Shown piece after piece: positions 29,586 to 64,000 of a stretch of 64,000 bases of DNA. Numbering within the stretch: the first letter of the stretch is position 1; every line of letters begins with the position of its first letter. The notes beneath the pieces were generated by a model that saw only the letters and a list, made by a program, of their open reading frames with translations, did no database searches and was not told the origin of the DNA. The stretch is from Antedon mediterranea. Taxonomy: Eukaryota > Animalia > Echinodermata. A program made the translations under genes and the position numbers. The DNA lies in assembly GCF_964355755.1 (NCBI RefSeq), contig NC_092673.1, positions 11,256,948 to 11,320,947 of the forward strand, in the 5' to 3' direction.

Positions 29586-29656
29586 TTTATGTCATATACA
29601 AATAACAATAAATCTGGGGAAAAGGCAGAATCCCAGAAAGATACAGGATCTTTGGT

Positions 29657-32877: not shown

Positions 32878-33504
32878 GTTCATGGCCTAGCTCTCTGTAT
32901 TCGCGTCAATATCATGTTACATCCAGGGATAAAAAATGCGGTTTTTTTTTTCAGGTGAAAGTCGGCTATTAGAAATTTAGACACGTGTCGCCCGACGTAC
33001 CAGGCTAAAAAATACCATGAATCGGATCGTAAATAGTATGCTTAGACCTATATATTTTTACTTTACCGTGTAGGCCTAGGCCTATATATATTTTTATTTT
33101 ACGGTAGGCCTAGGATACAGTATAATACATGATTATTTTAATAAATATAATTATAACATAACACTAGATTTAATTCGTCACTATGACGAATTATAGGTTA
33201 TATGCATTGATTTAAATAAAGATAATTGATTTTTAAAAGATATATTGATTGATTGATTTTCTCAGAATCTTTAATTATTTATAATATATGATAGGACCTT
33301 GCTAACGCGAACACCATAGCCGCTATCACAATCCGATCAAAGATCCATATGCGTATAATGTCAAAAACCACATTTGTTGTTACATAATAATAAAGACATA
33401 AGTTAATTTTTATCTAGATTTCATTATAAATCATGTGTATAATCTATACACTAAGAAATAAATTTGAACAAGCAATACGGATAATAAAAAAAAAATCTTA
33501 TTTC

Positions 33505-33578
33505 GTTTCCCAAGGTGAGACTCGATCTCGGTACCTTGAATGCCATAGACACGAGCACAGACCATCGAGCCATACACA
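33505..33578 (-). other. tRNA-derived Pol III module in family B (also at ~48531-48604 and ~49948-50020)
   Basis: gtgtaTGGCTCGATGGtctgtgctcgtgtctatggcattcaaggtaccgAGATCGAGTCTcaccttggga followed by a long T-run. Homologous to the family C module. Confidence 0.6.
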
Positions 33579-34350
33579 ACTGACTAAACGTTGTAGAAAA
33601 ATTCCTCCGTGTATTTACTATGCAGTAACCACTTTGGTGCAAATAGATTATTACATACCGCAATGAATTATAATTTTTTACTATGATGACATCTTTAAAA
33701 TGTAAACAAATGAAGCACTGTCAAACTATATACTTTTAACTTTAATATATGAACTTTTGAAGGAAGAAAGTTAATGTTAAGTTTGTTATTTTGGCCTAAG
33801 AAAATGTCATAATTTGTTTGATTGTCGAAATTATTTTTTTTAAATTTAATATGCAATTAATGATGACTTAATCAACTTTAGAAAGATTGTAAAACAGAAA
33901 TCGGGCAAAAAGAGTGCGCATTAACGTTTAACGCGCAGTGCGCATGCAAAAATCTGCGCACTCATGGCAATTTTTTAAACGCTTAAAATTGCCTGAAACG
34001 TACTCTAATTACAGCGAAAATAAATTTTGACAATTTTGAAAATTTTAAGCGCGCGTACGCAAGCGTTATATGCGCTACGCACGTAATTGTATTGCCATAT
34101 GATGAAATGTGACCTGAAATTTATGAGTACCAAATTTTGTTTAATTGTGATTCATGCTTGTGAAGATATGATTACAAACGTGATTTCGTAAAATCGCGCG
34201 TAGACCGCGTAATTTTTGATTGCTCATCGTGAAAATATAACCACATCGATTCCTGGCCATAAGGAATATACTCTGAAAACTTGACTTAGCTAGATGAAAC
34301 TGATGCCAAGATAATTCACGGACAAAATAGTGCTAAGGAAAGAATAAATA

Positions 34351-35942
34351 AACTAGACATGAAACTCGTCACTTTGACGAGTTAGTTATCCGCTCGACAA
34401 ACGCCACGTGCACGTCATACGTTAGAATATTGCACACAGAAAAATATTAAGGCATTATGACCTGAACTGAAGAATATGATATGTTGTTATTTCTGAATTC
34501 TGTTATTTTGTGTCATATACATAGTATACACAGTACAATCTGTATACATATCACAAACAGTGTAAAATAGGTGAAATTACGGGACCCGTATTTTATTGTA
34601 ATTTTTGACATCTTGACGGTTTCTAAATGAAATGCAAAAGTAGAAATTTCAGAATGAAATTATCTCAGCAACAACATATTAACGTGTAGAAGAAATTTGA
34701 ATACGTGAAATATTGATGCGCGCTCTTTTAAATGTAATGAAATATAACGCAAAAGATGAAAATACGACTTTTTGTATTTAACTGGCCATATGATGACGTC
34801 ACAACATTCGATTGGCAAAATTTTCACATGATTTTGTATCTACAATACAATAGCTTCCTGAAAACGTTTTAATCGTGATTATCACATTTTATTCTTACGA
34901 GCTATAACAGATTAAAATTTACTGTAAAGATGAAATTAATGACCAATGTAATTTAAATTTTTAGGCATGATGACGTTAAAAAAATTAAACAAAATTTAAT
35001 TCATGCAAAAGATAGTTGATTGTCCTAGAATATATTAAAATCGGGGTGAAAATGGACAACGAATAAGTGGAGATGCGCTCTATTAAATGTGATGAGCTAT
35101 GACGAAAGAGACAAAAATCCTATATTTTATATTCGCGTGGCCATACGATGATGGCACAATGTCCGGTTAGCCATATTAATGCATGATTCGATATCTACAA
35201 CTCATCAACTTCCAGAATATGTAATTAAAAAAAAGTTCTCCATGTAGTTTAGAATCTATGACTGTTTAAAAATAGGCATAATTTTGACGAATTTTTGAAC
35301 TTTTTCACCAGAAACGCGTGCAAATTATTTAATTCGACGTGCTCGTATGACGTAATTTTAAGTCGAAATTGTTTAAAAGTTGGTAACATTACTATAAAAG
35401 GCTGAAAAAACATAAATCACGCGAAAAAAATATGTTTTTAACGCTACGTGTGAACCGCGTGCGTAAAAAGTTTCGCGCGCGTGGGAATTTTTGACATGCT
35501 CAAAATGACATGAAACGCATAGAAAGTTGATTAGAAGTTGATTTTTCGCACTATAAAATTTTAAACGCGCGTGCGCGCGTAACTTTTTGTGAAACATGCT
35601 ATTTTTAATCCATAGAAAGTTTGCGCTTGATGTGACTTAAATTTTCACAAAGTGTCAAAACAAAATTATGTTTCGTTTTTAGTCTATGATCAATCATTGA
35701 AATTCATAAAATCGCGCGTAAGTCACGTTGCGCAACTCTGACGTCATTCAAAAATAGGAGGTGCACAAGTTCACGTAAATGTCGATATGTTGACAAAGTT
35801 ACGATATGTTCTGTTTACACGTTTTAGAGAAACGCGACGCACAAAAATGACAGAAGGAAAGAAGTATAATACAGAAAAAAAAAAAAAATATGATGAAACA
35901 GGACGATTACAAGGAGTTATCCGCTACTAAGCGGATAACTAA
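34351..35942 (-). mobile_element. Helentron/HINE family A' nested in B0
   Basis: Near-identical to 24247-25829; inserted after gtgctaaggaaagaataaata. Confidence 0.87.
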
Positions 35943-37962
35943 TAAATAAAGATTCTGACAGAATCAAGAGGTTATATGCATGATAATGCATAAACCTAAT
36001 AACATACGAGCCCAAAAAGCTATTAAACGAATTAACAATCGTGTTAACAACCCGTTGTAACAACAATGACCGGACTGCTAATAACCCGTTATTTTGAGTC
36101 ATAGGATTTCACGCAACATACCATAACAAGGACTGTTAATAACGCGTTGGAATCATCGTTACGCAACACTGAACGGCATGCCCGGTCTCCCGTTAATTAC
36201 GCGTTAAACAATGGAGTGATCACAACAGCATAGTAGCTAGTAAAGAAGGAGGGCTTGATATGCCTCAATGAACACGCCCAACCCCATGTAAATTAGCTTG
36301 CATATAACGGTAAATCGTTAAACTAGTTGCGTTACAACAAGTTAAACGGAGGAAAAACATTTGGGCACGCTCCCTAAAAGTCATAGAAATTGACGTAAAT
36401 GACGGACCGTTGAAAAAATCTGCATTTAAAAAAAATTCCACCTAATTATATATGCGTAGACAAATTTGACACCTTTCCTGTCTTTTAAATGCGGGTCATT
36501 CCATGCCAACTCAACAAATGGGATGGCTGGGTACCCCTCAGATTTCCTTGAAACTCACATAATATGCAACTATATGTCTCACGAACACACCAAAAATTTC
36601 AGTTGCCAACTCCAAGTCGTTTAAAAGTTATGGCCATTTGAAAATGTGTCGTCGAATTTTTGGTCTTAATAAATTACCTTTTTGTAAAGTTGCATTTTTA
36701 ATTAGCCATATTTTAAAAACTATTAAAGCTAATAAGCTGAATATTGATACACTGACATAATTTTGGTCATAGATTAAAAATATGAAAAAAAAATTGCTGT
36801 ATCTCAATTAATTTTCGAGATTTTGATCCCTAGAAACCCCAATTTATTTTGTCGCAAACAGCTTCGGCAATTTTTACCCCATATTTAAATATGAAAATAC
36901 ATTTTTAAACTGATTTTTTCCTATACATTATTAATATATGGTGTTAAATGTATCAATACAAAAAAGTTCATCATTTTAAAAATTTATCCTAGGGGTACAC
37001 TGCGCGTCAAAAACTCACTCGGGACACAAAATACAAAAAATCATTACTTTTTCATTTTGAACTTTGACCTTGTGGGCAATAATTCCCAAAATTGAAACTC
37101 ATCATATAAGTTCATCAATGCATGATTCAGCTATGTACCAAATACCAGTTTGGTGTCTTTATTCCTTCATGTCTAAATATGACTATTAAATTTGTTTATT
37201 TTTGTTTTGCATTTTGTGTATATTTATAGCAATTTCAATGTAAAATGTGCTTTTCGGAAGATCATAATTTCAGTATTTTATCTCCTAGTGCTATCAATAC
37301 ATTCAATTTTAGACAATTTTAGTAGACTGCTGTGTAGTCATGGATACATGGTACATTCAAATCAAAACTATTTTTCAAGTGACCTACAGTATACAATGTA
37401 ACAATGTAAGGGTTTCATATCATTGAACTAATTCAGATTGCTGAAATTAATTTATAATAACAATACAATAAATTAATAATAATAATAATAATAATATAAT
37501 ATATTTTTTATTTCCCTGCTCCAATTGAAGTTGTAAAGCATAGAAACACATTTACTTTAATAAGGTGATTCATAAACTACAAATCCCCCATAACCCTGCT
37601 CATTACCATACTATTGCAGTTGTGTGCTTTTTTACTTGCTTTGAATATTGTCAATATACAACGTTGTTAATTGAATAACAACATTTTAGGCAGTGAAAAA
37701 AGTTTCATAAATCCAGCCCCTGAGCTATTTGTACTATTTAAAGTAGTGTCTAGTAAAAATTAAGTCTGGGCTATAGTAACTATTTTAGCCAAACTAGACC
37801 ATGGTCTAGCATATTATTTCAACTTTTTACAGCTCTACAATAAGTCATTGAGCTATCGCTGGATGCTCAGTGTACCATGTGCACCAGGTTACTACCGTAA
37901 GTATTGACCATTCAGAAACAGCCTTTCTATAGAGGGCGCATAAAAAACTGAGAGCTCTATGT

Positions 37963-40279: not shown

Positions 40280-41169
40280 CTGTATAAAACAGTAAATCAA
40301 TTGTTATTGATGTTATATCATACATAGGCTACACGTATTGTACCTTACATACTTAAGTCCAAGGTACAGCCATGAATTTTAAATATAATATAGATCTGGT
40401 TAAATGAACATTAACAAATATGTGTAACAGAAATTATGACCAACACAAATTTTCACTTAAAATTGCCAAAAACTACTACAGTATAAAATCTAGATATACT
40501 TTTTTCAGTAGTTTAACCAACTAGATGGTTCTCTAATAGTAATACTCAAATTCAAATGTACGCAATGCTTAGTTGGGTCTATAATATAGAAATAAATAGA
40601 CTAAAATTAGCACCCTGAGAATTACTTCTGAAAGAGAAACTAGTCAAACATTAGGGTTGTTAATTTATATATAGATGCAGGATTTAAACAATTTTAAATT
40701 GTGAGGACTTTAATACGCAAATCAAAACAAAATTAATGAACAGGAAAATAATGTAGATGAAGTAGGTATATGAATATGGTATAATCCTTAAACGAATGTA
40801 AATGTTATGCATGATTTAAAATAGGGAAATTGCGCAATTTAATGACATTTCATTCTTTTACCTGCATTTTTTATATATGCATACAGATTTCAATGACCTT
40901 TGGTTTTATCAAATACTGAAAATACCATGCGTAATTTGAATAGTGATTCATTTTGACACAAAAATTTCAAATTGCATTTGCTCAAATCACATAACAGAAA
41001 TACATTCAAATTTTCTGCGCAATTTGAATATCGCAGAAAATCCTCATCATTTTTTAAATTACATACATTCATACAAATCACACATAAAAGAAATAAATTT
41101 AATTAATTAAAATAATATAAAATCTAATAAACTCAGTTCATTCGGTTTTGTAAATTTACTGCACCAAGC

Positions 41170-41622
41170 TGATAATAATAATTGTCAGGAAAGGTCGGTA
41201 TGACAGTGCAACTAACGCCATGCGATCTTTGCACTGGCTTCCAATGTCTTATAGATGTCAATTCAAAATAGTGTGTCTTGTATGGCGTTCGCTTAAAGGC
41301 TCCACTCCAAGTTACCCGAGAGATATTCTTACTGTGCGGAATGTTTCTCGCAGTACTCGTTCAAGCACCAGCATTGTTAACCTGACAATCCCACGAACTA
41401 AACGAAAGACATTTGCTGACCGTTCGTTTGCCGTAGCAGGACCCACAATTTGGAACAGATTACCAAGTCACATTAAACACTTAGACGACTATAATCAGTT
41501 TAAAAAACATTTAAAAGCACTATATTTCAAACAATGTTATGATACCGATTGATGTGAAGCACAGCTGATTATAATTAAATGTTGTATAAATGTGCGCTAT
41601 ACAAGAAATAATAATAATAATT
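41170..41622 (+). mobile_element. L2-group LINE, 3' fragment
   Basis: LHWLPMSYRCQFKI..ADRSFAVAGPTIWNRLP..FKKHLK, then gcgctataca and (AAT)n. Confidence 0.85.
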
Positions 41623-46532: not shown

Positions 46533-48183
46533 GCTCTGCTAACTTTTCTGGCTGTTTACTTTCTTTTTGATTTAGCTTTTCGCTTTTTTTTTGTATCTCC
46601 ATTGAGATCCAGCAACTGATACCAACAGCATTGTCATTTTTTCAGTAATTTGCCTTTGGATTTATATATATATATAAAAAAAGCGAAAAGCTAAATCAAA
46701 ACGATAAAGTAAACCGCCAGAAAAGTTAGCAGAGTTTCGGGCAACACTAGCCCTTCATGTGCAAGTGAGGGAATTTGGATAAAGTCATAGCATAAGAGTT
46801 GGCAAGTGCTGCCTGGGTGGACAGGAATAAAAGAAATATAACAATCAGCGCCATGAGCAATGAATGTTGGAATGGTGCTATATAAATCGAACGATTGATT
46901 GATTGATTGAAACAGCGTGTTAAATGGTAGGTGGAGACTGAATAAGAGTAGAAAACAAAGAAGGTAGGCCCCTATAGCTTGGTAGATATATAAACAATTT
47001 TGGAATGGAACTAAAAAAAGCTAAAATGGTGGTTAATATTGAAACTTAAATTTTGGTAGTCCCTGGTCAATGGAATAATTTTACCGATCTGGGAGTATTG
47101 TTCCTAATGTTAAGTCCAAAAGGTTTTGTGGGTTTAAGTAGTAATTCCCAGTGGTTTTCTTTGCCTTTGCGAGTTTTGTCGCTCCATTTGACATCGTGGT
47201 CTATTGCAATAACTCTGAAATTTGCAATAGAGTGACCAGCTGAATTAAAATGTTCGGCTACAGGTTCATCAAGCTTTAATGTTTCGATAGCTGATCTGTG
47301 TTGTGTCATTCTCATACGGAGAGTGTTTTTTGTTTCTCCGACGTACTGTTTGCCACAAATATTACAGTATATGAGATAAATGACGTTTTTGGTTAGACAA
47401 TTAATTGATTGTCTTATCCGAAAAATGCGGCCAGTTTGGTTACTCTCAATTTTTTCAGTAGAATCAACCAATGAACAAGTTTTGCAAGATTTTCCGCAAA
47501 GGTGACTGCCCACATTTTGGCTGTCATGAGAGTTAATTTCACTCTTAAATTTGGATCTGACTAATATGTCACGAAGGTTGGAAGGTCTACGAAATGCAAT
47601 AATGGGTGGTTCCGGAAAAACCGCCCTGAGACGTTCTGTGAACTGTAGAATGGGCATATGTTTCTCAATAATAGCCCGTAATGGAGGCAACCTAGGGTGA
47701 TAGGTTGTGACCAATGGCACTCTGGTCGAATTTTTTGGCTGACGTGGTTTGTACGTCAGTGTTTGACATCGAGGAATATCTTTTGCTTTCTTTATAGCAG
47801 TTTCGATATATTCCTTCTTGTAATTTCTATTCCGGAGATGTCCGGTTAGTTCTTCGGTACGATTCTGAAAATCTAAATCTGAAGAACAGATACGTCTGAT
47901 ACGTAATGCTTGACTGTACGGTATGTTTTTAGTACAGTGTCGGGGGTGACAACTGCTAGGGAGCAGGTACATATTTTTATCCGTGGGTTTACGGAATAGG
48001 TCAGTTTTGAGTGTACCATTTTTTATGGTCACTATAGTGTCCAAAAAAATCAACGCTACTAGTGGAATTGGTAGCTGTAAATTTTATAGTTGGGTGGACT
48101 AAATTAATATTGAGAAGAAAAGATTCCAAATTATCTTCACCATGGGTCCAGATCATGAAGATGTCGTCAATGTATCTAAACCA
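46533..48183 (-). mobile_element. Penelope-like element (Neptune-type), 3' portion: RT C-terminus, GIY-YIG endonuclease and 3' region
   Basis: WFRYIDDIFMIWTHG, (frameshift) FLDT..TDLFRKPTD..YL..SCHP..KNIPYSQALRIRRICS, a CGKSCKTC linker, and NVIYLIYCNICGKQYVGET..R..QH. Inverted terminal segment at 46533-46590 versus 46676-46734. Confidence 0.93.
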
Positions 48184-51016
48184 AACTAGATTTAATTCGT
48201 CACTATGACGAATTATAGGTTATATGCATTGATAATTAAAATAAAGATAATTTATTTTTAAAAGATATTTTGATTCATTGATTTTCTCAGATTCTTTAAA
48301 TAATATATAATATATGATAGGACCTTGCTAACGCGAATACAATAGCCGGTATCACAATCCGATCAAAGATCCCTCTGCGTATAATGTCATAAACCACATT
48401 TGCTGTTACATAATAATAAAGACATAAGTTATTTTTTATCTAGATTTCATTATAAATCATGTGTATAATATATACACTAAGAAATAAATTTGAACAAACA
48501 ATACGGATAATAAAAAAAAAAATTTATTTCGTTTCCCAAGGTGAGACTCGATCTCGGTACCTTGAGTGCCATAGACACGAGCACACACCACCGAGCCATA
48601 CACAACTGACTAAAAATCGTAGAAAAATTCCTCCGTGTATTTACTATGCAGTAACCACTTTGGTGCAGATAGATTATTACATACCGCAATGAATTATAAT
48701 TTTTTACTATGATGACATCTCTAAAAATGTACAAAAATGATGCACTGTCAAACTATATACTTTTAACTTTAATATATGAACTTTTGAAGGAAGAAAGTTA
48801 ATGTTAAGTTTGTTATTTTGGCCTAAGAAAATGTCATAATTTGTTTGATTGTCGAAATGAATTTTTTTTAATTTAATATGAAATTAATTATGGCTTAATC
48901 AACTTTTGTTCCCTTAGTTTAATAATAAATCATACATAAGATACATAAACTTCAAGAAAATTAAATAAAAAATATGTGTTCCCGAGCATTCTGACGATCT
49001 ATATTAATTTTAAAATTTAGCATATTTTCACCATTTTGTTAACTTACACGTGCGTAGCCTGTCACTTTTGACGTGCTCGTATAAGGCAATTACGCGTTGA
49101 AAAGTGAATAAAATATGATGATATTATTAAAGAAAGGTTGTACAACCGAAATCGGACAAAAAGAGTGCGCATTAACGTATAACGCGCAGTGCGCGTGCAA
49201 AAATCTGCGCACTCATGGCAATTTTTTAAACGCTTAAAATTGCCTGAAACGTACTCTAATTTCATCGAAAATAAATTTTGACAATTTTGAACATTTTAAG
49301 CGCGCGTACGCAAGCGTTATATGCGCTACGCACGTAATTGTATTGCCATATGATGAAATATGACCTGAAATTTATGAGTACCAAATTTTGTTTAATTGTG
49401 ATTCATGCTTGTGAAGATATGATTACAAACGTGATTTCGTAAAATCGCGCGTAGACCGCGTAATTTTTGATTACGCATCGTGAAAATATAACCACATCGA
49501 TTCCTGGCCATAAGGAATATCCTCTGAAAAATTGACTTAGATAGATGAAACTGATATCAAGATAATTCACGGACAAAATAGTGCTAAGGAAAGAATAAAT
49601 AAACTAGATTTAATTCGTCACTATGACGAATTATAGGTTATATGCATTGATTTAAATAAAGATAATTGATTTTTAAAAGATATATTGATTGATTGATTTT
49701 CTCAGAATCTTTAATTATTTATAATATATGATAGGACCTTGCTAACGCGAACACCATAGCCGGTATCACAATCCGATCAAAGATCCATATGCGTATAATG
49801 TCATAAACCACATTTGTTGTTACATAATAATAAAGACATAAGTTAATTTTTATCTAGATTTCATTATAAATCATGTGTATAATCTATACACTAAGAAATA
49901 AATTTGAACAAACAATACGGATAATAAAAAAAAAAAATCTTATTTCGTTTCCCAAGGTGAGACTCGATCTCGGTACCTTGAATGCCATAGACACGAGCAC
50001 AGACCACCGAGCCGTACACAACTGACTAAAAGTTGTAGAAAAATTCCTCCGTGTATTTACTATGCAGTAACCACTTTGATGCAAATAGATTATTACATAC
50101 CGAAATGAATTATAATTTTTTACTATGATGACATCTTTAAAATGTATACAAATGATGCACTGTCAAACTACATACTTTTAACTTTAATATATGAATTTTT
50201 GAAGGAAGAAAGTTAATGTTAAGTTTGTTATTTTGGCCTAAGAAAATGTCATAATTTGTTTGATTGTCGAAATTATGTTTTTTTAATTTAATATGCAATT
50301 AATGATGACTTAATCAACTTTTGTTCTCTTAATTTGATAATAAATCATACATATGATACATACACTTCAAGAAAATGAAATAAAAAATAGGTGTTCCCCT
50401 GCATTCTGACGATATATATTAATTTTAAAATTTAGCATATTTTCACCATTTTGTTAACTTATACGTGCGTAGCCCGTCACTTTTGACGTGCTCGTATAAC
50501 GCAATTTCGAGTTGAAACCTGAATCAAATATGATGATATTATTAAAGAAAGGTTATACAACAGTAATCGGACACAAACAGTGTGCATTAACGTTTGATGC
50601 GCAGTGCGCGTGCAAAAATCTGCGCACTCATGGCAATTTTTTAAACGCCTAAAATTGCCTGAAACGTACTCTAATTTCATCGAAAATAAATTCTGACAAT
50701 TTTCAACATTTTAAGCGCGCGTACGCATGCGTTATATGCGCTACGCACGTAATTGTATTGCCATATTATGAAATATGACCTGAAATTTATGAGTACCAAA
50801 TTTTGTTTAATTGTGATTCATGCTTGTGAAGATATGATTACAAACGTGATTTCGTAAAATCGCGCGTAGACCGCGTAATTTTTGATTACGCATCGTGAAA
50901 ATATAACCACATCGATTCCTGGCCATAAGGAATATACTCTGAAAACTTGACTTAGCTAGATAAAACTGATGCCAAGATAATGCATGGACAAAATAGTGCT
51001 AAGGAAAGAATAAATA

Positions 51017-52637
51017 AACTAGAACTTAAACTCGTCACTTGAGGACGAGTTTGGTTATCCGCCAGCAACAAAGCGTATCTTGCGTATTCAAGTACTTCCA
51101 AGTTATGACTTTTCCAAAAAAAGTAGGCTATTCAAAATTAAAACTGCCCTCTCAGTGTAATAACCAACTAAACCCTTTTAATTAATTGTTTTCCCGTGAC
51201 GGGACTCGAACCCGGTACCTCTGATACCAAAGTCGGTTGCATTACACATCGAGCCATATGACCACCTGCTGACGAAAATCCGAAGAAAGAGTCCTCGTTC
51301 ATTCGGTATGTCGTGAACCCCCTCGATGCAAGTTGATTATTACATATCAAACTTAAATCATAAATTTTACTATGATGAAATCTTCAAAAATTTTAAACGC
51401 TGATATTTTATGAAAGTACATACTTTCAAGTTTGATATATTAACATGTAAAGAAAAAAGATAAATGTTATGTTTATTGTTTTGCTCTTTGAATAAGTTTA
51501 TGTTTGTTTGATGATAAATATTTCAAAAATTATATTTAATATGCAAATAATGTAGCCATCAAACACGTTTTAGCATTCAACACTATAATAAATCAGACCT
51601 ATGATTCATACACTGCAAGTAATTAAAATAAAAAATGGGGGTAACCTTGCATTCTGATGAACTGTGTCATTTTTAAAAGTAGACATATTTTGGAACATTT
51701 TCACAATTTGTTGACGTTTTCGTGCGCAACCTGTCATGTTTAACGTGCTCGTAGAACGCCATTTCAAGTTGAAAAGTGAATAAAATAACGTAAAATTGTT
51801 AACAGAAGATTTAAAAACACAAATCGTGTAAAAGAAATGCTCATACCTGTTCCCTGCGCCGTGCGCGCGTAAAAATGTGCGCACCAGTGGCAATTTTTTA
51901 AACGCTTAAAATGACCTGAATCGTGCTCTAATTTAATCAGAAATTGATTTGAAGCATTTTAAAATTTCAAACGCCATTTACGCGCGCACTTTCTAATGTT
52001 ACAAATTGCGATAGCGTTAAAAAAGTTAACTATTGATGTGAAGCAAACGTGGCTGAAAATGACGTTAAAAAATATTCATTTGTTTCGAAGTTATAATCAA
52101 TTTAAGATTTTCAGAAAATCACGCGTAACTTACGCTAAGCGGCTCTGACATCGTCAAAAAGCTTGGCTGGACAACTTCAGTAAAATGTCTATATGTTGAA
52201 CAAGTTACAAAATGTTATGTTAACGCGTTACAGAGAAACAGCGTGCACAAATTAGGAGCATTTTAAAATTTCAAACGCAGTTTACGCGCAGACTTTCTAG
52301 TGTTCAAAAATTTGCTGAAGAGCGAAAAAGTTAGCCATTGATGTGAAGAAAACGTGGCTGAAAATTTCGTTAAAAAATATTTATCGGTTTCGAAGTTATG
52401 ACCGATTTAAGATTTTCAGAAAATCGCGCGTAACTTACGCTACGCGGATCTGACATTGTCAAAAAGCTTCGCAGTACATCTTCAGTTAATTGTCTATATG
52501 TTGACCAAGTTACAAAATGTTATGTTAACACGTTCAAGAGAAAACGCGTACACAAAATCTGAGAAAGAAAGAAGAATAATAAAAAAAAAAAGTAACACTA
52601 CAATAACAAAGGTTATCCGCTTGAGGCGGATAACCAA
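51017..52637 (-). mobile_element. Helentron family C copy C1
   Basis: aaCTAG, hairpin aaactcgtc-acttgag-gacgagttt, sub-TIR ttggttatccgc, far end ggttatccgc-ttgag-gcggataaccaa. Confidence 0.85.
51192..51263 (-). other. tRNA-derived Pol III module in family C (also at 59167-59238)
   Basis: ggtcataTGGCTCGATGTGtaatgcaaccgactttggtatcagaggtaccgGGTTCGAGTCCcgtcacggga: A-box-like, perfect B box, and T-stem-like pairing. Confidence 0.7.
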
Positions 52638-52704
52638 TAAATAAATAAATAAATAAAGATTTTGACAGAATCAAGAGGTTATATGCATATCATGCATATA
52701 ACCT

Positions 52705-54274
52705 AACTAGACATGTAACTCGTCACTTTGACGAGTTTGGTTATCCGCCGCGCAAGTGGTGCAACATTAACATTAAGGGGATAGGTTGAGGACAAAAGGA
52801 AGTGTTCACGTTGGCATTATGACCTGAACTGAAGAATATGATATGTTGTTATTGCTGAATTTTATTATTTAAATTCATATATAGTATATACACAGTATAT
52901 AATCTGTATCCATATCACATACAGTGTAGAATAGGTGAAATTACGGGACCCGCTATTTATTGCAATTTTTAACATGTTGACGGTTTTAAAATGAAACGCG
53001 AAAGTAGCAATTCCGAAAGGAAATTATCTCAGCAACAACGTATTAGCGTGTAGAAGAAATTTGAATACGTGAAATATTGATGCGCGCTCTTTTAAATGTA
53101 ATGAATTATGACGCAAAAGATGAAAATACGACCTTTTTTATTTAACTGGCCATATGATGACGTCACAACATCCGATTTGCAACATTTTTACATAATTTCG
53201 TATCTACAATCCAATAGCTTCCAGAAAAAATTTTAATCGTGATTATCACATTTTATTCTTACGAGCTATAACAGATTAAAATTTACTGTAAAGATGAAAT
53301 TAATGCCACACGTGATTTAAATTTTTAGGCATGATGACGTTAAAAAAATTAAAATATTTTTAACTCATGCGAAAGATACTTGATTGACCTAGACAAAATC
53401 AAAATCGGGGTGAAAATGGAAAACGGATAAGTGGAGATGCGCTCTATTCAATGTGATGAGCTATGACGAAAGATACAAAAATCCTAAATTTTATATTCGC
53501 ATGGCCATACGATGACGTCATAATGTCCGGTTAGCCATATTAATACCTGATCCGATATCTACAACTCATCTACTTCCAGAATATGCCATCCACAAAAAGT
53601 TGACCGTCTAGTTTAGAAATTACGACTGTTTAAAAAAAGGCATATTTTAAACGAATTTTTTAACCTTTTCATAAAAAACGCGCGCAAATTGTCCAATTCG
53701 ACGTGCTCGTATGACGTATCTTTAAGTCGAAATTGTTTAAAATTTGGTAAAATTACTAGAAAAGGCTGGAAAAATATAAATCACGCGAAAAAAGTACGTT
53801 TTCAATACTACGTGCGCACCGCACACGTAAAAATGTGCGCACGCGTGGGAATTTTTGACATGCTTAAAACGACATGAAACGCGTAGAAAGTTGATTATAA
53901 ATTAATTTTGCGCATTTTGAAATTTTAAATGCGCGTGCGCGCGTAACTTTGTGTAAAACACGCAATTTTTTTTCAACAGAAAGTTAGCGCATGATATAAA
54001 TTAAACTTTTGCAAAGTTTCAAGTTGAAATGTTATTTGGTTGTCGAGCTATGTTAAATACGACAAAATCGTTAAATCGCGCGTAAGTCACGTTGCGCAAT
54101 TGTAAACGTCATGAAAAGCTTCGCTTGACGACGTTACGTAAATGTCAATATGTTAAGATAGTTACCGAAATGTTATGTTTGCGAGTTTTAGAGAAAAGCG
54201 TTACACAAAAATCATACAGAATGATTTCGTACAATCACAAGAGGTTATCCTGCAACTTCGTTGCGGATAACCAA
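52705..54274 (-). mobile_element. Helentron family A copy A1
   Basis: aactagacatgtaactcgtcactttgacgagtttggttatccgc ... ggttatcctgcaacttcgttgcggataaccaa. Confidence 0.87.
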
Positions 54275-55797
54275 CTAGACATGTAACTCGTCACTTTGAC
54301 GAGTTTGGTAATCCGCCGCGCAAGTGGTGCAACATTAACATTAAGGGGATAGGTTGAGGACAAAAGGAAGTGTTCACGTTGGCATTATGACCTGAACTGA
54401 AGAATATGATATGTTGTTATTGCTGAATTTTATCTATATATAAATTCATATATAGTATACACAGTATAATCTGTATCCATATCACATACAGTGTAGAATA
54501 TGTGAACTTACGGGACCCGCTATTTATTGCAATTTTTAACATGTTGACGGTTTTAAAATGAAACGGGAAGGTAGCAATTCCGAAAGGAAATTATCTCAGC
54601 CACAACGTATTAGCGTGTAGAAGAAATTTGAATACGTGAAATATTGATGCGCGCTCTTTTAAATGTAATGAATTATGACGCAAAAGATGAAAATACGACC
54701 TTTTTTATTTAACTGGCCATATGATGACGTCACAACATCCGATTGGCAACATTTTTACATAATTTCGTATCTACAATCCAATAGCTTTCAGAAAAAGTTT
54801 TAATCGTGATTATCAAATTTTATTCTTACGAGCTATAACAGATTAAAATTTACTGTAAAGATGAAATTGATGCCACACGTGATTTAAATTTTTAGGCATG
54901 ATGACGTCAAAAAAATTAAAATATTTTTAACTCATGCGAAAGATAGTTGATTGACCTATACAATATCAAAATCGGGGTGAAAATGGAAAACGGATAAGTG
55001 GAGATGCGCTCTATTCAATGTGATGAGCTATGACGAAAGATACAAAAATCCTAAATTTTATATTCGCGTGGCCATACGATGACGTCACAATGTCCGGTTA
55101 GCCATATTAATACCTGATCCGATATCTACAACTCATCTACTTCTAGAAAATGTCATCCACAAAAATTTGACCGTCTAGTTTAGAAATTACGACTGTTTAA
55201 AAAAAGTCATATTTTAAACGAATTTTTTAACCTTTTCATAAAAAACGCGCGCAAATTGGCCAATTCGACGTGCTCGTATGACGTATCTTTAAGTCAAAAT
55301 TGTTTAAAATTTGGTAAAATTACTAGAAAAGGCTGAAAAAACATAAATCACGCGAAAAAATTACGTTTTCAATTCTACGTGCGCACCGCACACGTAAAAA
55401 TGTGCGCACGCCTGGGAATTTTTGACATGCTTAAAACGACATGAAACGCGTAGAAAGTTGATTATAAATTAATTTTGCGCATTTTGAAATTTTAAATGCG
55501 CGTGCACGCGTAACTTTGTGTATAACACGCAATTTTTTTTCAACAGAAAGTTAGCGCATGATATAAATTAAACTTTTGCAAAGTTTCAAGTTGAAATGGT
55601 ATTTGGTTGTCGAGCTATGTTAAATACGACAAAATCGTTAAATCGCGCGTAAGTCACGTTGCGCAATTGTAAACGTCATGAAAAGCTTCGCTTGACGACG
55701 TTACGTAAATGTCAATATGTTAAGATAGTTACCAAAATGTTATGTTTGCGAGTTTTGGAGAAAAGCGTTACACAAAAATCATACAGAAAGAAAGAAG

Positions 55798-57402
55798 AAC
55801 TAGACATGTAACTCGTCACTTTGACGAGTTTGGTTATCCGCCGCGCAAGTGGTGCAACATTAACATTAAGGGGATAGGTTGAGGACAAAAGGAACTGTTC
55901 ACGTTGGCATTATGACCTGAACTGAAGAATATGATATGTTGTTATTGCTGAATTTTATTATTTAAATTCATATATAGTATACACAGTATAATCTGTATCC
56001 ATATCACATACAGTGTAGAATAGGTGAAATTACGGACCCGCTATTTATTGCAATTTTTAACATGTTGACGGTTTTAAAATGAAACGCGAAGGTAGCAATT
56101 CCGAAAGGAAATTATCTCAGCAACAACGTATTAGCGTGTAGAAGAAATTTGAATACGTGAAATATTGATGCGCGCTCTTTTAAATGTAATGAATTATGAC
56201 GCAAAAGATGAAAATACGACCTTTTTTATTTAACTGGCCATATGATGACGTCACAACATCCGATTGGCAACATTTTTACATAATTTCGTATCTACAATCC
56301 AATAGCTTCCAGAAAAAGTTTTAATCGTGATTATCACATTTTATTCTTACGAGCTATAACAGATTAAAATTTACTGTAAAGATGAAATTGATGCCACACG
56401 TGATATAAATTTTTAGGCATGATGACGTCAAAAAAATTAAAATATTTTTAACTCATGCGAAAGATAGTTGATTGACCTAGACAATATCAAAATCGGGGTG
56501 AAAATGGAAAACGGATAAGTGGAGATGCGCTCTATTCAATGTGATGAGCTATGACGAAAGATACAAAAATCCTAAATTTTATATTCGCGTGGCCATACGA
56601 TGACGTCACAATGTCCGGTTAGCCATATTAATACCTGATCCGATATCTACAACTCATCTACTTCCAGAATATGTCATCCACAAAAATTTGACCGTCTAGT
56701 TTAGAAGTTACGACTGTTTAAAAAAAGGCATATTTTAAACGAATTTTTTAACCTTTTCCTAAAAAACGCGCGCAAATTTTCCAATTCGACGTGCTCGTAT
56801 GACGTATCTTTAAGTCGAAATTGTTTAAAATTTGGTAAAATTACTAGAAAAGGCTGGAAAAATATAAATCACAAAAAAAAAATACGTTTTCAATGCTACG
56901 TGCGCACCGCACACGTAAAAATGTGCGCACGCGTGGGAATTTTTGACATGCTTAAAACGACATGAAAAGCGTAGAAAGTTGATTATAAATTAATTTTGCG
57001 CATTTTGAAATTTTAAATGTGCGTGCGCGCGTAACTTTGTGTAAAACACGCAATTTTGTTTCAACAGAAATTTAGCGCATGATATAAATTAAACTTTTGC
57101 AAAGTTTCACTTTAAAATGTTATTTGGTTTTCGACATATGTTAAATACGATAAAATCGTTAAATCGCGCGTACGTCACGTTGCGCAATTGTAAACATCAT
57201 GAAAAGCTTCGCTTGACGACGTTACATAAATGTCAAAATGTTAACATAGTTAACAAAATGTTATGTTTGCGAGTTTTAGAGAAAAGCGTTACACAAAAAT
57301 CATACAGAAAGAAAGAAGAAGAATAAAAAGTTGATGATGATGATGATGATGATTTCGTACAATCACAAGAGGTTATCCTGCAACTTCGTTGCGGATAACC
57401 AA
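55798..57402 (-). mobile_element. Helentron family A copy A3
   Basis: Both family A ends present. Confidence 0.87.
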
Positions 57403-58993
57403 CTAGACATGTAACTCGTCACTTTGACGAGTTTGGTTATCCGCCGCGCAAGTGGTGCAACATTAACATTAAGGGGATAGGTTGAGGACAAAAGGAAGTG
57501 TTCACGTTGGCATTATGACCTGAACTGAAGAATATGATATGTTGTTATTGCTGAATTTTATTATTTAAATTCATATATAGTATACACAGTCTAATCTGTA
57601 TCCATATCACATACAGTGTAGAATAGGTGAAATTACGGGACCCGCTATTTATTGCAATTTTTAACATGTTGACGGTTTTAAAATGAAACGCGAAGGTAGC
57701 AATTCCGAAAGGAAATTATCTCAGCAACAACGTATTAGCGTGTAGAAGAAATTTGAATACGTGAAATATTGATGCGCGCTCTTTTAAATGTAATGAATTA
57801 TGACGCAAAAGATGAAAATACGACCTTTTTCATTTAACTGGCCATATGATGACGTCACAACATCCAATTGGCAACATTTTTACATAATTTCGTATCTACA
57901 ATCCAATAGCTTCCAGAAAAAGTTTTAATCGTGATTATCACATTTTATTCTTACGAGCTATAACAGATTAAAATTTACTGTAAAGATGAAATTACTGCCA
58001 CACGTGATTTTAATTTTTAGGCATGATGACGTCAAAAAAATTAAAATATTTTTAACTCATGCGAAAGATAGTTGATTGACCTAGACAATGTCAAAATCGG
58101 GGTGAAAATTGAAAACGGATAAGTGGATATGCGCTCTATTCAATGTGATGAGCTATGACAAAAGATACAAAAATCCTAAATTTTATATTCGCGTGGCCAT
58201 ACGATGACGTCACAATGTCCGGTTAGCCATATTAATACCTGATCCGATATCTACAACTCATCTACTTCCAGAATATCCCATCCACAAAAAGTTGACCGTC
58301 TAGTTTAGAAATTACGATTGTTTAAAAAAAGGCATTTTTTAAACGAATTTTTTAACCTTTTCATAAAAACGCGCGCAAATTGTCCAATTCGACGTGCTCG
58401 TATGACGTATCTTTAAGTCGAAATTGTTTAAAATTTGGTAAAATTACTAGAAAAGGCTGGAAAAACATAAATCACGCGAAAAAAATACGTTTTCAATGCT
58501 ACGTGCGCACCGCACACGTAAAAATGTGCGCACGTGTGGGAATTTTTGACATGCTTAAAACGACATGAAACGCGTAGAAAGTTGATTATAAATTAATTTT
58601 GCGCATTTTGAAATTTTAAATGCGCGTGCGCGCGTAACTTTGTGTAAAACACGCAATTTTTTTTCAACAGAAAGTTAGCGCATAATATAAATTAAACTTT
58701 TGCAAAGTTTCACTTTAAAATGTTATTTGGTTTTCGACATATGTTAAATACGAGAAAATCGTTAAATCGCGCGTACGTCACGTTGCGCGATTGTAAACAT
58801 CATGAAAAGCTTCGCTTGACGACGTTACATAAATGTCTAAATGTTAACATAGTTAACAAAATGTTATGTTTGCAAGTTTTAGAGAAAAGCGTTACACAAA
58901 AATCATACAGAAAGAAAGAAGATTAAGAAAAAGATGATGATGATTTCGTACAATCACAAGAGGTTATCCTGCAACTTCGTTGCGGATAACCAA
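57401..58993 (-). mobile_element. Helentron family A copy A4
   Basis: Both family A ends present; head-to-tail with A3. Confidence 0.87.
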
Positions 58994-60612
58994 CTAGAAC
59001 TTAAACTCGTCACTTGAGGACGAGTTTGGTTATCCGCCAGCAACAAAGCGTATCTTGCGTATTCAAGTACTTCCAAGTTATGACTTTTCCAAAAAAAGTA
59101 GGCTATTCAAAATTAAAACTGCCCTCTCAGTGTAATAACCAACTAAACCCTTTTAATTAATTGTTTTCCCGTGACGGGACTCGAACCCGGTACCTCTGAT
59201 ACCAAAGTCGGTTGCATTACACATCGAGCCATATGACCACCTGCTGACGAAAATCCGAAGAAAGAGTCCTCGTTCATTCGGTATGTCGTGAACCCCCTCG
59301 ATGCAAGTTGATTATTACATATCAAACTTAAATCATAAATTTTACTATGATGAAATCTTCACAAATTTTAAACGCTGATATTTTATGAAAGTACATACTT
59401 TCAAGTTTTATATATTAACATGTAAAGAAAAAAGATAAATGTTATGTTTATTGTTTTGCTCTTTGAATAAGTTTATGTTTGTTTGATGATAAATATTTCA
59501 AAAATTATATTTAATATGCAAATAATGTAGCCATCAAACACGTTTTAGCATTCAACACTATAATAAATCAGACCTATGATTCATACACTGCAAGAAATTA
59601 AAATAAAAAATGGGGGTAACCTTGCATTCTGATGAACTGTGTCATTTTTAAAAGTAGACATATTTTGGAACATTTTCACAATTTGTTGACGTTTTCGTGC
59701 GCAACCTGTCATGTTTAACGTGCTCGTAGAACGCCATTTCAAGTTGAAAAGTGAATAAAATAACGTAAAATTGTTAACAGAAGATTTAAAAACACAAATC
59801 GTGTAAAAGAAATGCTCATACCTGTTCCCTGCGCCGTGCGCGCGTAAAAATGTGCGCACCAGTGGCAATTTTTTAAACGCTTAAAATGACCTGAATCGTG
59901 CTCTAATTTAATCAGAAATTGATTTGAAGCATTTTAAAATTTCAAACGCCATTTACGCGCGCACTTTCTAATGTTACAAATTGCGATAGCGTTAAAAAAG
60001 TTAACTATTGATGTGAAGCAAACGTGGCTGAAAATGACGTTAAAAAATATTCATTTGTTTCGAAGTTATAACCAATTTAAGATTTTCAGAAAATCACGCG
60101 TAACTTACGCTACGCGGCTCTGACATCGTCAAAAAGCTTGGCTGGACAACTTCAGTAAAATGTCTATATGTTGAACAAGTTACAAAATGTTATGTTAACG
60201 CGTTACAGAGAAACAGCGTGCACAAATTAGGAGCATTTTAAAATTTCAAACGCAGTTTACGCGCAGACTTTCTAGAGTTCAAAAATTTGCTGAAGAGCGA
60301 AAAAGTTAGCCATTGATGTGAAGAAAACGTGGCTGAAAATTTCGTTAAAAAATATTTATCGGTTTCGAAGTTATGACCGATTTAAGATTTTCAGAAAATC
60401 GCGCGTAACTTACGCTACGCGGATCTGACATTGTCAAAAAGCTTCGCAGTACATCTTCAGTTAATTGTCTATATGTTGACCAAGTTACAAAATGTTATGT
60501 TAACACGTTCAAGAGAAAACGCGTACACAAAATCTGAGAAAGAAAGAAGAATAATAAAAAAAAAAAGTAACACTACAATAACAAAGGTTATCCGCTTGAG
60601 GCGGATAACCAA
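58992..60612 (-). mobile_element. Helentron family C copy C2
   Basis: Near-identical to C1. Confidence 0.87.
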
Positions 60613-62221
60613 CTAGACATGTAACTCGTCACTTTGACGAGTTTGGTTATCCGCAGCGCAAGTGGTGCAACATTAACTTAAGGGGATAGGTTGAGGACAA
60701 AAGGAAGTGTTCACGTCGGCATTATGACCTGAACTGAAGAATATGATATGTTGTTATTGCTGAATTTTATTATTTATATTCATATATAGTATACACAGTA
60801 TAACCTGTATCCATATCACATACAGTGTAGAATAGGTGAAATTACGGGACCCGCTATTTATTGCAATTTTTAACATGTTGACGGTTTTAAAATGAAACGC
60901 GAAGGTAGCAATTCCGAAAGGAAATTATCTCAGCAACAACGTATTAGCGTGTAGAAGAAATTTGAATACGTGAAATATTGATGCGCGCTCTTTTAAATGT
61001 AATGAATTATGACGCAAAAGATGAAAATACGACCTTTTTCATTTAACTGGCCATATGATGACGTCACAACATCCGATTGGCAACATTTTTACATAATTTC
61101 GTATCTACAATCCAATAGCTTACAGAAAAAGTTTTAATCGTGATTATCACATTTTATTCTTACGAGCTATAACAGATTAAAATTTTCTGTAAAGATGAAA
61201 TTGATGCCACACGTGATTTAAATTTTTAGGCATGATGACGTCAAAAAAATTAAAATATTTTTAACTCATGCGAAAGATAGTTGATTGACCTAGACAATAT
61301 CAAAATCGGGGTGAAAATGGAAAACGGATAAGTGGAAATGCGCTCTATTCAATGTGATGAGCTATGACGAAAGATACAAAAATACTAAATTTTATATTCG
61401 CGTGGCCATACGATGACGTCACAATGTCCGGTTAGCCATATTAATACCTGATCCGATATCTACAACTCATCTACTTCCAGAATATGTCATCCACAAAAAT
61501 TTGACCGTCTAGTTTAGAAATTACGACTGTTTAAAAAAAGGCATATTTTAAACGAATTTTTTAACCTTTTCATAAAAAACGCGCGCAAATTGTCCAATTC
61601 GACGTGCTCGTATGACGTATCTTTAAGTCGAAATTGTTTAAAATTTGGTAAAATTACTAGAAAAGGCTGGAAAAACATAAATCACGCGAAAAAAATACGT
61701 TTTCAATGCTACGTGCGCACCGCACACGTAGAAATGTGCGCACGCGTGGGAATTTTTGACATGCTTAAAACGACATGAAACGCGTAGAAAGTTGATTATA
61801 AATAAATTTTGCGCATTTTGAAATTTTAAATGTGCGTGCGCGCGTAACTTTGTGTAAAACACGCAATTTTTTTTCAACAGAAATTTAGCGCATGATATAA
61901 ATTAAACTTTTTCAAAGTTTCACTTTAAAATGTTATTTGGTTTTCGACATATGTTAAATACGATAAAATCGTTAAATCGCGCGTACGTCACGTTGCGCAA
62001 TTGTAAACATCATGAAAAGCTTCGCTTGACGACGTTACATAAATGTCAAAATGTTAACATAGTTAACAAAATGTTATGTTTGCGAGTTTTAGAGAAAAGC
62101 GTTACACAAAAATCATACAGAAAGAAAGAAGAAGAATAAAAAGTTGATGATGATGATGATGATGATGATGATTTCGTACAATCACAAGAGGTTATCCTGC
62201 AACTTCGTTGCGGATAACCAA
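60611..62221 (-). mobile_element. Helentron family A copy A5
   Basis: Both family A ends present. Confidence 0.87.
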
Positions 62222-62286
62222 AAATAAAAAGATGATGATTTCGTACAATCACAAGAGGTTATCCTGCAACTTCGTTGCGGATAACC

Positions 62287-63890
62287 AACTAGACATGTAA
62301 CTCGTCACTTTGACGAGTTTGGTTATCCGCCGCGCAAGTGGTGCAACATTAACATTAAGGGGATAGGTTGAGGACAAAAGGAAGTGTTCACGTTGGCATT
62401 ATGACCTGAACTGAAGAATATGATATGTTGTTATTGCTGAATTTTATTATTTAAATTCATATATAGTATACACAGTATAATCTGTATCCATATCACATAC
62501 AGTGACATACAGTGTAGAATAGGTGAAATTACGGGACCCGCTATTTATTGCAATTTTTAACATGTTGACGGTTTTAAAATGAAACGCGAAGGTAGCAATT
62601 CCGAAAGGAAATTATCTCAGCAACAACGTATTAGCGTGTAGAAGAAATTTTAATACGTGAAATATTGATGAGCGCTCTTTTAAATGTAATGAATTATGAC
62701 GCAAAAGATGAAAATACGACCTTTTTTATTTAACTGGCCATATGATGACGTCACAACATCCGATGGGCAACATTTTTACATAATTTCGTATCTACAATCC
62801 AATAGCTTCCAGAAAAAGTTTTAATCGTGATTATCACATTTTATTCTTACGAGCTATAACAGATTAAAATTTACTGTAAAGATGAAATTGATGCCACACG
62901 TGATTTAAATTTTTAGGCATGATGACGTCAAAAAAATTAAAATATTTTTAACTCATGCAAAAGATAGTTGATTGACCTAGACAATATCAAAATCTGGGTG
63001 AAAATGGAAAACGAATAAGTGGAGATGCGCTCTATTCAATGTGATGAGCTATGACGAAAGATACAAAAATCCTAAATTTTATATTCGCGTGGCTATACGA
63101 TGACGTCACAATGTCCGGTTAGCCATATTAATACCTGATCCGATACCTACAACTCATCTACTTCCAGAATATGTCATCCACAAAAAGTTGACCGTCTAGT
63201 TTAGAAATTACGACTGTTTAAAAAAAGGCATATTTTAAACGAATTTTTTAACCTTTTCATTAAAAACGCGCGCAAATTGTCCAATTCGACGTGCTCGTAT
63301 GACGTATCTTTAAGTCGAAATTGTTTAAAATTTGGTAAAATTATTAGAAAAGGCTGGAAAAACATAAATCACGCGAAAAAAATACGTTTTCAATGCTACG
63401 TGCGCACCGCACACGTAAAAATGTGCGCACGCGTGGGAATTTTTGACATGCTTAAAACGACATGAAACGCGTAGAAAGTTGATTATAAATTAATTTTGCG
63501 CATTTTGAATATTTAAATGCGCGTGCGCGCGTAACTTTGTGTAAAACACGCAATTTTTTTTCAACAGAAAGTTAGCGCATGAAATAAATTAAACTTTTGC
63601 AAAGTTTCACTTTAAAATGTTATTTGGTTTTCGACATATGTTAAATACGAGAAAATCGTTAAATCGCGCGTACGTCACGTTGCGCAATTGTAAACATCAT
63701 GAAAAGCTTCGCTTGACGACGTTACATAAATGTCAAAATGTTAACATAGTTAACAAAATGTTATGTTTGCAAGTTTTAGAGAAAAGCGTTACACAAAAAT
63801 CATACAGAAAGAAAGAAGATTAAGAAAAAGATGTTGATGATTTCGTACAATCACAAGAGGTTATCCTGCAACTTCGTTGCGGATAACCAA
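62287..63890 (-). mobile_element. Helentron family A copy A6
   Basis: Both family A ends present; followed by the B1 remainder. Confidence 0.87.
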
Positions 63891-63944
63891 TAAAGATTTT
63901 GACAGAATCAAGAGGTTATATGCATGATAATGCATATAACCTAA

Positions 63945-64000
63945 CAAGTGGTTTATTTGGTTGGAGGGACAGAAAATTGGCCTCAAATTGTCCCATAAAT
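63945..64000 (-). mobile_element. Same Penelope element, RT segment upstream of the insertion
   Basis: Reads FMGQFEANFLSLQPNKPLV and joins in frame to WFRYIDD at 48183. Confidence 0.88.

What the first reader, a model, noticed from the sequence alone, without database searches (positions are those of the whole stretch)
48184..63944. Self-targeting stack of ten Helentron-like elements with all ends accounted for
Seen: the region parses as B1[ B2[ C1 ] A1 A2[ A3 A4 C2 A5 ] A6 ]. All ten copies have the same orientation, and all left and right termini pair up. Only two junction types occur: (i) flush head-to-tail, sharing AA at a previous element's end (ccAA|ctag, cctAA|ctag), and (ii) insertion into the A-rich microsatellite ~55-70 bp inside that same end. 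Known: Helentrons/DINE-1-like elements have sub-TIRs and a 3' hairpin, insert at TT, and Helitrons can form tandem arrays. Inference: a mixture of three families plus nesting cannot come from simple rolling-circle concatemers of one element. It suggests the Rep/helicase is recruited to existing 5' termini, so each insertion creates a new landing pad and the array grows itself.
Basis: partly seen in the sequence, partly recalled or inferred. Interest (0 to 1): 0.85.

Follow-up and report, generated by a model that had tools for sequence, protein, structure and literature searches.

The report
Rolling-circle transposons stacking into own heads
Ten non-coding rolling-circle transposons of three families sit one inside or directly against another, all facing the same way, likely because new copies tend to land at the front end of copies already there; self-insertion is known for this group, but the bias here appears unusually strong.

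Summary
The parse is right. Ten non-autonomous Helentron-type (HINE/HLE2) elements (6 A, 2 B, 2 C; minus strand) tile 48186-63944 without a gap, inside a Penelope-like retroelement whose frame continues across the stack. Six junctions are flush; three lie in the host's microsatellite 54-69 nt from its 5' end. A second nest (33164-35999) uses the same B nucleotide. Copies differ by 0.4-5%, A copies with 9-19 private substitutions, which argues against one concatemer, recent duplication or misassembly. Public run contigs hold these and further junction types at high depth; in one skim about 20-40% of A ends sit in another A's microsatellite (low counts; composites could inflate this). So targeting of the 5' zone looks real and not confined to this locus. 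That the transposase is recruited to 5' termini is inferred only: flush junctions are symmetric, and a T-rich target regenerated at each insertion remains a serious rival. Nesting, doubled 5' ends and adjacency of unrelated Helitrons are in print (Fusarium, maize, frog); I found no paper measuring this bias. No genome, long reads or autonomous partner were available. Interest 0.42.

The parts
48186..49603 (-). B1 body with 3' end (hairpin + CTAG); founder of the stack, inserted in a Penelope-like element
63891..63944 (-). B1 5' end (54 nt: TT, sub-TIR hairpin, start of microsatellite)
49604..51018 (-). B2 body with 3' end, inserted in the B1 microsatellite
52638..52706 (-). B2 5' end (69 nt)
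51019..52637 (-). C1, complete, in the B2 microsatellite; internal 305-bp repeat x2
52707..54274 (-). A1, complete, microsatellite-deleted type; flush against the B2 5' end
54275..55799 (-). A2 body with 3' end; flush against the A1 5' end
62222..62288 (-). A2 5' end (67 nt)
55800..57402 (-). A3, complete, 3' end in the A2 microsatellite
57403..58993 (-). A4, complete, flush
58994..60612 (-). C2, complete, flush on both sides; 6 substitutions from C1
60613..62221 (-). A5, complete, flush against the C2 5' end
62289..63890 (-). A6, complete, flush against the A2 5' end
47067..48185 (-). Host Penelope-like retroelement, downstream part (YIDD motif region to GIY-YIG domain; one frameshift)
   Evidence: (GIY-YIG E 1.7e-4, just under the curated cut-off); the name Penelope-like is from my own knowledge of the RT + GIY-YIG architecture
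63945..64000 (-). Host retroelement, upstream part; open frame that continues into 48185 and below
33164..35999 (-). Second nest: B0 (33164-34352 + 35943-35999, internally deleted) carrying Ay (34353-35942) at the same B nucleotide as B2 and C1
24249..25829 (-). Ax, lone copy of the Ay subfamily (about 83% to A1-A6)

Best explanation
Ten non-coding Helentron-type transposons of three families lie nested or flush in one orientation, likely built by separate insertions that a transposase supplied in trans would aim at the front (5') end of copies already present. Shown: the terminal anatomy, the exact tiling, the two junction types, the second nest, the distinctness of the copies, and the same kinds of junction at high depth in public runs. 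Inferred: each copy arrived singly at a T^T step with no duplication; the zone used is the 5' boundary itself and the pyrimidine-rich microsatellite just behind the 5' hairpin. Inferred mechanism: the HUH transposase binds and nicks resident 5' ends (its normal start step), leaving a free flank 3'-OH, a protein-linked resident 5' end and locally opened DNA; an incoming strand joined into that nick gives a flush head-to-tail junction like the circle junction, and a cut in the opened T-rich tract gives the nested type. Both fix the orientation, and every new copy brings a new 5' end, so the stack would feed itself. Later read-through copying of nests or double-headed chimeras probably multiplies some junctions.
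For: Tiling and junctions. 10 of the 13 copies in the window have their 3' end in the 5' zone of another copy; none lies elsewhere in an element. Ay hits the same B nucleotide as B2 and C1 at a locus 14 kb away (1 site in about 10,500 TT sites). 60 equally pyrimidine-rich TT tracts in 43.8 kb of non-element DNA and 1-2 further tracts inside each element hold none of these elements. Run X1 (9 contigs laid, 7 shown): A 3' end in an A microsatellite depth 4.57 against 11.4 (A type) or about 21.7 (with the Ax type, inferred from bin sums); A 5' end followed by an orphan A head 7.7 of 22.8. Runs X8/X9 show junctions absent from the window at depths of 1,200-5,800: other registers in the A and B microsatellites, a C-like end in the C microsatellite, a C-like end flush on a B head (12 of 132 rows shown). 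Run X3 holds A as one circularly permuted 1594-nt contig. Order fits growth towards the 5' side: B2 branch 1.8%, A1/A2 share 12 fixed sites against A3-A6, A2 has most private changes (19), A6 groups with copies nested in A2; the young C2 sits at an internal head-to-tail junction. Helraiser transposase cuts only ssDNA, precisely at its ends, and makes head-to-tail junctions (PMC4778049 passages).
Against: Flush junctions are symmetric and do not give the targeted end. The B site is fixed to downstream sequence, not to hairpin distance (54, 57, 69 nt). The age order is weak: B2's three-way branch (1.77%) overlaps A2's (1.2-2.5%) and includes subfamily divergence. X1 shows no exact flush A|A contig apart from record 4 (depth 2.08), so flush junctions may be rarer than in this stack. 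Contig depth is no copy number, counts are low (rough 95% ranges 0.07-0.72), and a few composites copied many times would give the same depths. Founder targets do not clearly mimic the 5' end (6, 3 and 4 of 8 matches; 7% of background sites reach 6). No autonomous partner was seen.
Confidence: 0.55

Rival explanations
1. Sequence-only target, regenerated at each insertion: the integrase (perhaps the Helentron AP-endonuclease) prefers T^T at the start of a pyrimidine-rich tract; the elements happen to carry an ideal tract near their 5' end, and since each insertion leaves T^T at both boundaries, repeated hits at one site give flush stacks (double insertion). No recruitment to termini is needed; orientation follows the strand asymmetry of the tract.
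For: Three insertions in B share the same downstream sequence whatever the distance to the hairpin. HINEs prefer T-rich targets (PMC4067079, PMC7492417 passages); a lepidopteran helitron-like family that disrupts (GAAA)n is known to me only as a title in a reference list. Double insertion is an established route to tandems (PMC5932611 passages). Pyrimidine-rich TT sites lie almost only on the element strand.
Against: 60 comparable tracts outside elements and the internal tracts of the elements are unused, and 0 of 3 founders sit in such a tract by my inspection of the contexts. This model would place later copies between B2's 3' end and the B1 body, whereas B2, apparently the oldest guest, abuts the B1 body; C2 sits at a junction with no pyrimidine tract downstream.
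Confidence: 0.27
2. A few rare nesting events were amplified as units: read-through of 3' ends and chimeras with two 5' ends copy ready-made junctions, so both the stack and the high junction depths come from composite transposition rather than from repeated targeting.
For: 3'-end bypass is shown for Helraiser (PMC4778049); double-5' chimeras are described in Fusarium and maize and a doubled left end in a frog HLE2. The orphan-head junction has nearly the same letters in the window, X1 and X8. A1/A2 differ from A3-A6 only in the 5' fifth of the alignment, and C-body/A-head joints exist, so heads are exchanged.
Against: No block of two or more elements is repeated in the stack; A4 and A6 share no derived site and differ at 31 positions, A3 and A5 at 23. 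At least six different junction registers or partners appear among the rows shown, each needing its own original insertion in the zone.
Confidence: 0.13
3. Unequal crossover, segmental duplication or misassembly made the array from fewer elements.
For: Some informative sites conflict among A copies, as expected from gene conversion or crossover. No long read spanning the stack was available.
Against: Every copy has intact, family-matched ends and A copies carry 9-19 private substitutions; three families are interleaved; crossover between A copies would duplicate the 67-nt A2 head, which occurs once; the junction types occur in independent runs.
Confidence: 0.05

Closest known systems
HINE / DINE-1-like non-autonomous Helentrons (HLE2); PMC4067079, PMC7492417, PMC11417382 (passages)
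   Same: Sub-TIRs, 5' inverted repeat hairpin, microsatellite behind it, central repeats, 3' palindrome, T^T target without duplication, no coding capacity. PMC4067079 suggests that clustering like that of Helitrons 'might be seen' with Helentrons.
   Different: The passages read describe T-rich targets and clusters but no measured preference for the element's own 5' zone; the microsatellite here is (TTTA)/(TTC)/(ATC) on the element strand, not GTCY.
Self-inserted and multi-5'-end FoHeli elements of Fusarium oxysporum; PMC5148889 (section 16 and passages)
   Same: Insertion into or 2 bp from another element's 5' terminus, short duplicated 5' ends (<200 bp), chimera model.
   Different: A handful of cases; here ten copies of three families with all ends kept, base-exact recurrent sites, and a sizeable share of all ends in one skim.
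Maize and bat Helitron1 clusters and nests; PMC3288121 (passages), Yang and Bennetzen 2009 (not held; seen only as cited in PMC12477314 and PMC3288121)
   Same: Insertion near or inside other Helitrons, sometimes directly next to distantly related ones; 17.6% of maize helA with several 5' termini.
   Different: Helitron1 (5' TC, no sub-TIRs); preference described as regional, not as a defined terminal zone.
Rolling-circle Helitron concatemers and double-insertion tandems; PMC11934779, PMC12001565, PMC5932611 (passages)
   Same: Head-to-tail flush junctions in one orientation.
   Different: Those are arrays of one element; this stack mixes three families and includes nesting.

Membership tests
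HINE / non-autonomous Helentron (HLE2) | 12-15 bp sub-terminal inverted repeats, near the 5' end and about 38-60 nt from the 3' end | tested here: met
   12 bp (A), 13 bp (C), 14 bp (B) counting the terminal T(s); the 3' copy spans about 30-45 nt from the end, slightly closer than the published range (read)
HINE / non-autonomous Helentron (HLE2) | Inverted repeat beside the 5' sub-TIR forming a hairpin (DINE-1 type) | tested here: met
   10-13 bp stems starting at nt 3, -11.4 to -12.7 kcal/mol for A1, Ay, B2, C1
HINE / non-autonomous Helentron (HLE2) | Palindrome 8-35 nt from the 3' end | tested here: met
   9-10 bp stem ending 7-11 nt before the end in A1, Ay, B2, C1
HINE / non-autonomous Helentron (HLE2) | Microsatellite behind the 5' hairpin and central repeats | tested here: met
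   Microsatellites in all three families; 305-bp x2 in C, 143-bp diverged repeat in A; none found in B
HINE / non-autonomous Helentron (HLE2) | Insertion at T^T without target duplication | tested here: met
   13 of 13 5' ends start TT; 12 of 13 3' ends are followed by TT, one by TG; host frame kept with the TT counted once. The split of the Ts between element and target is ambiguous: read with both Ts on the element, 5 of 7 non-flush sites are A^T
HINE / non-autonomous Helentron (HLE2) | No coding capacity | tested here: met
   No stop-to-stop frame of 120 aa or more in 48186-63944; no Rfam match
HINE / non-autonomous Helentron (HLE2) | Autonomous Rep/Hel(-EN) partner with the same termini | not testable with these tools
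   No genome held; no Rep/helicase among the 8 window ORFs scanned of 15 listed
Canonical Helitron (HLE1) | 5' TC start, no terminal inverted repeats | tested here: not met
   All 13 start TT and carry sub-TIRs
Canonical Helitron (HLE1) | 3' hairpin and CTRR | tested here: met
   All 13 end in hairpin + CTAG
Rolling-circle concatemer array | Near-identical units of a single element | tested here: not met
   Three families; A copies differ at 23-58 positions

The most novel reading that the evidence does not exclude
HLE2 transposases use the 5' ends of resident copies as integration sites (strand exchange between two start nicks, plus cutting in the opened tract behind the hairpin), so that a large share of all copies in this genome, and in other animals, sit in self-feeding, polarised, multi-family stacks: a built-in safe-haven targeting rule for eukaryotic rolling-circle transposons, and a source of head swapping between families.
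Probability: 0.4. Interest if true: 0.7.

Novelty: new variant of a known kind. Interest (0 to 1): 0.42.

Why it matters
How Helentrons choose and join their target is unknown: the papers read offer only 'T^T in T-rich DNA', and clustering of Helitrons is unexplained. A defined, strand-specific hot zone at the element's own 5' end would turn that into a direct test (hairpin versus microsatellite), explain doubled 5' ends and swapped heads, and give a route from dispersed copies to long arrays. It also matters for annotation, since such stacks break one-element-per-pair-of-ends tools. If the bias proves to be plain T-tract preference or composite copying, this is a tidy but ordinary HINE nest.

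Tried and rejected
Terminal pattern in viral contigs: 0 hits; in metagenome contigs: 5 hits, none with CTAG context or BLAST similarity to the window, taken as chance. No match in phages or Rfam. All 11 runs found are kept as contigs, none as raw or long reads; 5 of 11 were laid, and both lays covered part of the stack only, so the order of the whole stack and the empty site were not checked against reads. X2 appears from its flat contig depths (about 55-80) to be a related genome with few copies, so it was not used for fractions; it holds one flush junction (record 9). X8 loose ends (12 contigs before the 3' end with a microsatellite-like consensus, 19 behind the 5' end with an A-rich mixed consensus) cannot give a fraction, since contigs with unique flanks are probably too short in overlap to be laid. 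The idea that founder sites mimic the 5' end did not hold up. The parse with a 5'-truncated A2 and a duplicated A5 head was considered and rejected: the orphan head completes A2 in register with one mismatch and differs from A5's head. Earlier findings by sequence and by place: nothing. Yang and Bennetzen 2009 is not held. Passages of PMC4224331, PMC13286980, PMC12001565 and PMC13085455 gave no 5'-zone targeting.
Full report
Observation. On the element (minus) strand six 3' ends abut the first TT of another copy and three lie in a host microsatellite 54, 69 and 67 nt from the host's 5' end.

What the elements are. On the minus strand each starts TT, then a 10-13 bp hairpin whose first arm recurs inverted about 30-45 nt before the 3' end, then a T-rich microsatellite; each ends with a 9-10 bp hairpin and CTAG. 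This is the HINE/DINE-1 anatomy described in PMC4067079 (passages), PMC7492417 (passages) and, as HLE2, in PMC11417382 (passages). No frame of 120 aa lies in the stack. The families are distantly related (65-73% over parts). An autonomous partner could not be sought, as no genome is held.

Surroundings. The stack interrupts a retroelement with a YIDD motif and a GIY-YIG domain (Penelope-like by my own knowledge). Translated separately, the right flank leaves one base and the left flank two before the frame resumes, so the site closes in frame with the TT counted once: the outer ends are exact and nothing was duplicated. Two further loci lie in the window: a lone copy Ax (24249-25829) and a nest B0[Ay] (33164-35999) in which Ay, of another subfamily (83% to A1-A6), uses the same B nucleotide as B2 and C1. 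PiggyBac-like and LINE-like remnants and 32-41% GC point to a repeat-rich animal genome (inference).

Separate insertions, not one amplification. A copies differ at 23-58 of about 1,563 positions, with 9-19 private substitutions each; B copies at 45-75; C1 and C2 at 6 of 1,619. No two-element block recurs: A4 and A6 share no derived site. A1 and A2 differ from A3-A6 at 12 fixed sites, all in columns 1331-1475 of 1630, i.e. near the 5' end, so heads have been exchanged between subfamilies. Some sites conflict, so conversion or crossover has played some part.

Is the bias more than chance? 10 of 13 copies have their 3' end in the 5' zone of another copy, on the same strand. A null spreading 12 insertions over all TT sites gave at most 3 in 200,000 runs, but the window was picked for its array. 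The second nest is less affected by that choice: one site among about 10,500, three chances. A pyrimidine-tract preference alone fits poorly: 60 such tracts in 43.8 kb outside the elements and 1-2 more inside each element are free of these elements.

Outside the window. Eleven runs hold the stretch, all as contigs. On B2[C1]A1 (15 of 125 joints and 12 of 132 between-letter rows shown) runs X8/X9 (one sample) show the A2|A3-type junction at depth 5,804 and 1,971, A heads followed by another A's GAT tract (5,000, 4,725; 1,524), B in the B tract four letters further on (1,498), a C-like end in the C tract (2,138) and flush on a B head (1,207), and C-body/A-head joints (660; 1,721), while many other joints shown have depths of 150-1,300 in X8 and 55-320 in X9. 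X3 holds A as a circularly permuted 1594-nt contig, i.e. a head-to-tail join. On the A1|A2 junction the small run X1 (9 contigs laid, 7 shown) gives 4.57 for an A 3' end in an A microsatellite against 11.4 for the A 3' end (about 21.7 with the Ax type, from bin sums), and 5.63 + 2.08 for an A head followed by an orphan head out of 22.8: roughly 0.2-0.4, with ranges from 0.07 to 0.72 if depth is treated as a count. Against my reading: X1 has no exact flush A|A contig besides record 4, contig depth is no copy number, whether X1 is the same species is not shown, and composites copied as units would give such depths too. The variety of registers and partners still requires several original insertions in the zone.

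Which end is targeted? A flush junction belongs to both neighbours, so structure alone does not decide. In the B1 site the order from the B1 body outwards is B2, A1, A2, A6; B2 has a 1.8% branch, A1/A2 carry outgroup-like states at several of the fixed sites, A6 groups with copies nested inside A2: oldest inside, youngest at the 5' side, but the ranges overlap. C2, nearly identical to C1 and matching high-depth contigs without a difference over 162 and 131 nt, sits between A4 and A5, where the only target is a head-to-tail junction. In favour of a sequence-defined target, the B site is constant relative to downstream bases while its distance to the hairpin varies.

Mechanism. Helraiser transposase cuts only ssDNA, precisely at its ends, forms head-to-tail circle junctions and can bypass its 3' end (PMC4778049 passages). 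From this I infer that a nicked resident 5' end offers both reactive groups for joining an incoming strand flush, and opens the adjacent T-rich tract for a T^T cut; both give one orientation and each guest adds a new head. I put this at 0.55, the sequence-only regenerated target at 0.27, composite copying as main cause at 0.13, crossover or misassembly at 0.05. The descriptive claim, stepwise insertion biased to the 5' zone, is the sum of the first two.

What is known. Self-insertion, doubled short 5' ends and a copy 2 bp from another's 5' terminus are reported in Fusarium (PMC5148889, section 16 and passages); nests and 17.6% multi-5' elements in maize (PMC3288121 passages); a doubled left end in a frog HLE2; adjacency of distantly related Helitrons in bat and maize, with the guess that Helentrons do the same; preferential insertion near other Helitrons (Yang and Bennetzen 2009, seen only as cited). 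Eight searches of the held library showed no paper measuring a 5'-zone bias for HLE2; subscription journals and all supplements were not seen, and the Thomas and Pritham 2015 review and Xiong 2016 were not read. One earlier AI finding in another genome reports the same pattern; it is a lead on generality, not evidence.

Verdict. A real, unusually clean stack of known-type elements with a strong, apparently genome-wide bias for their own 5' zone. The behaviour is anticipated in print, its strength and base-exact sites seem not to be; the recruitment mechanism is untested. New variant of a known kind, interest 0.42.

Noticed in passing
window 33164-34352: B0 has a clean internal deletion of about 225 nt (BLAST break at 33879/33880) and sits in a short (ATAAC)n repeat, the one site of 13 with TG after the 3' CTAG.
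   Followed up: partly
window 1282-1460: Fragment 89% like the B interior, in the opposite orientation, followed by a (GGTC)n microsatellite; possibly a further HINE-like family.
   Followed up: no
window 2252-4213 (-): PiggyBac-like transposase remnant in two frames (PF13843 E 5.9e-33, PF13842).
   Followed up: partly
window 13774-14865, 25999-26580, 4925-5398, 5678-6046, 41154-41552: LINE-like reverse transcriptase remnants (PF00078 for the first two; the others by eye only).
   Followed up: partly
window 31086-32877: Foldback-like element with 546-nt inverted arms at 98% and a 138-bp internal tandem.
   Followed up: no
window 6526-7804 and 39069-40141: Two inverted copies of another interspersed repeat (84-94%).
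   Followed up: no
window 21092-21424, 28975-29593, 37983-38673, 29657-30726: 27-bp minisatellite (12 copies), 84-bp minisatellite, a 175-bp repeat block with inversions, and an element with 89-nt perfect inverted ends.
   Followed up: no
run X9/X8 joints 52585->54221 and 52592->54221: Chimeras with a C body and an A head exist at appreciable depth: head swapping between families.
   Followed up: no
window 54200-54230 (A1): A1 lacks the microsatellite; this type is common (depth 6 in X1, 6,810 in X8) and would be immune to nested insertion.
   Followed up: partly
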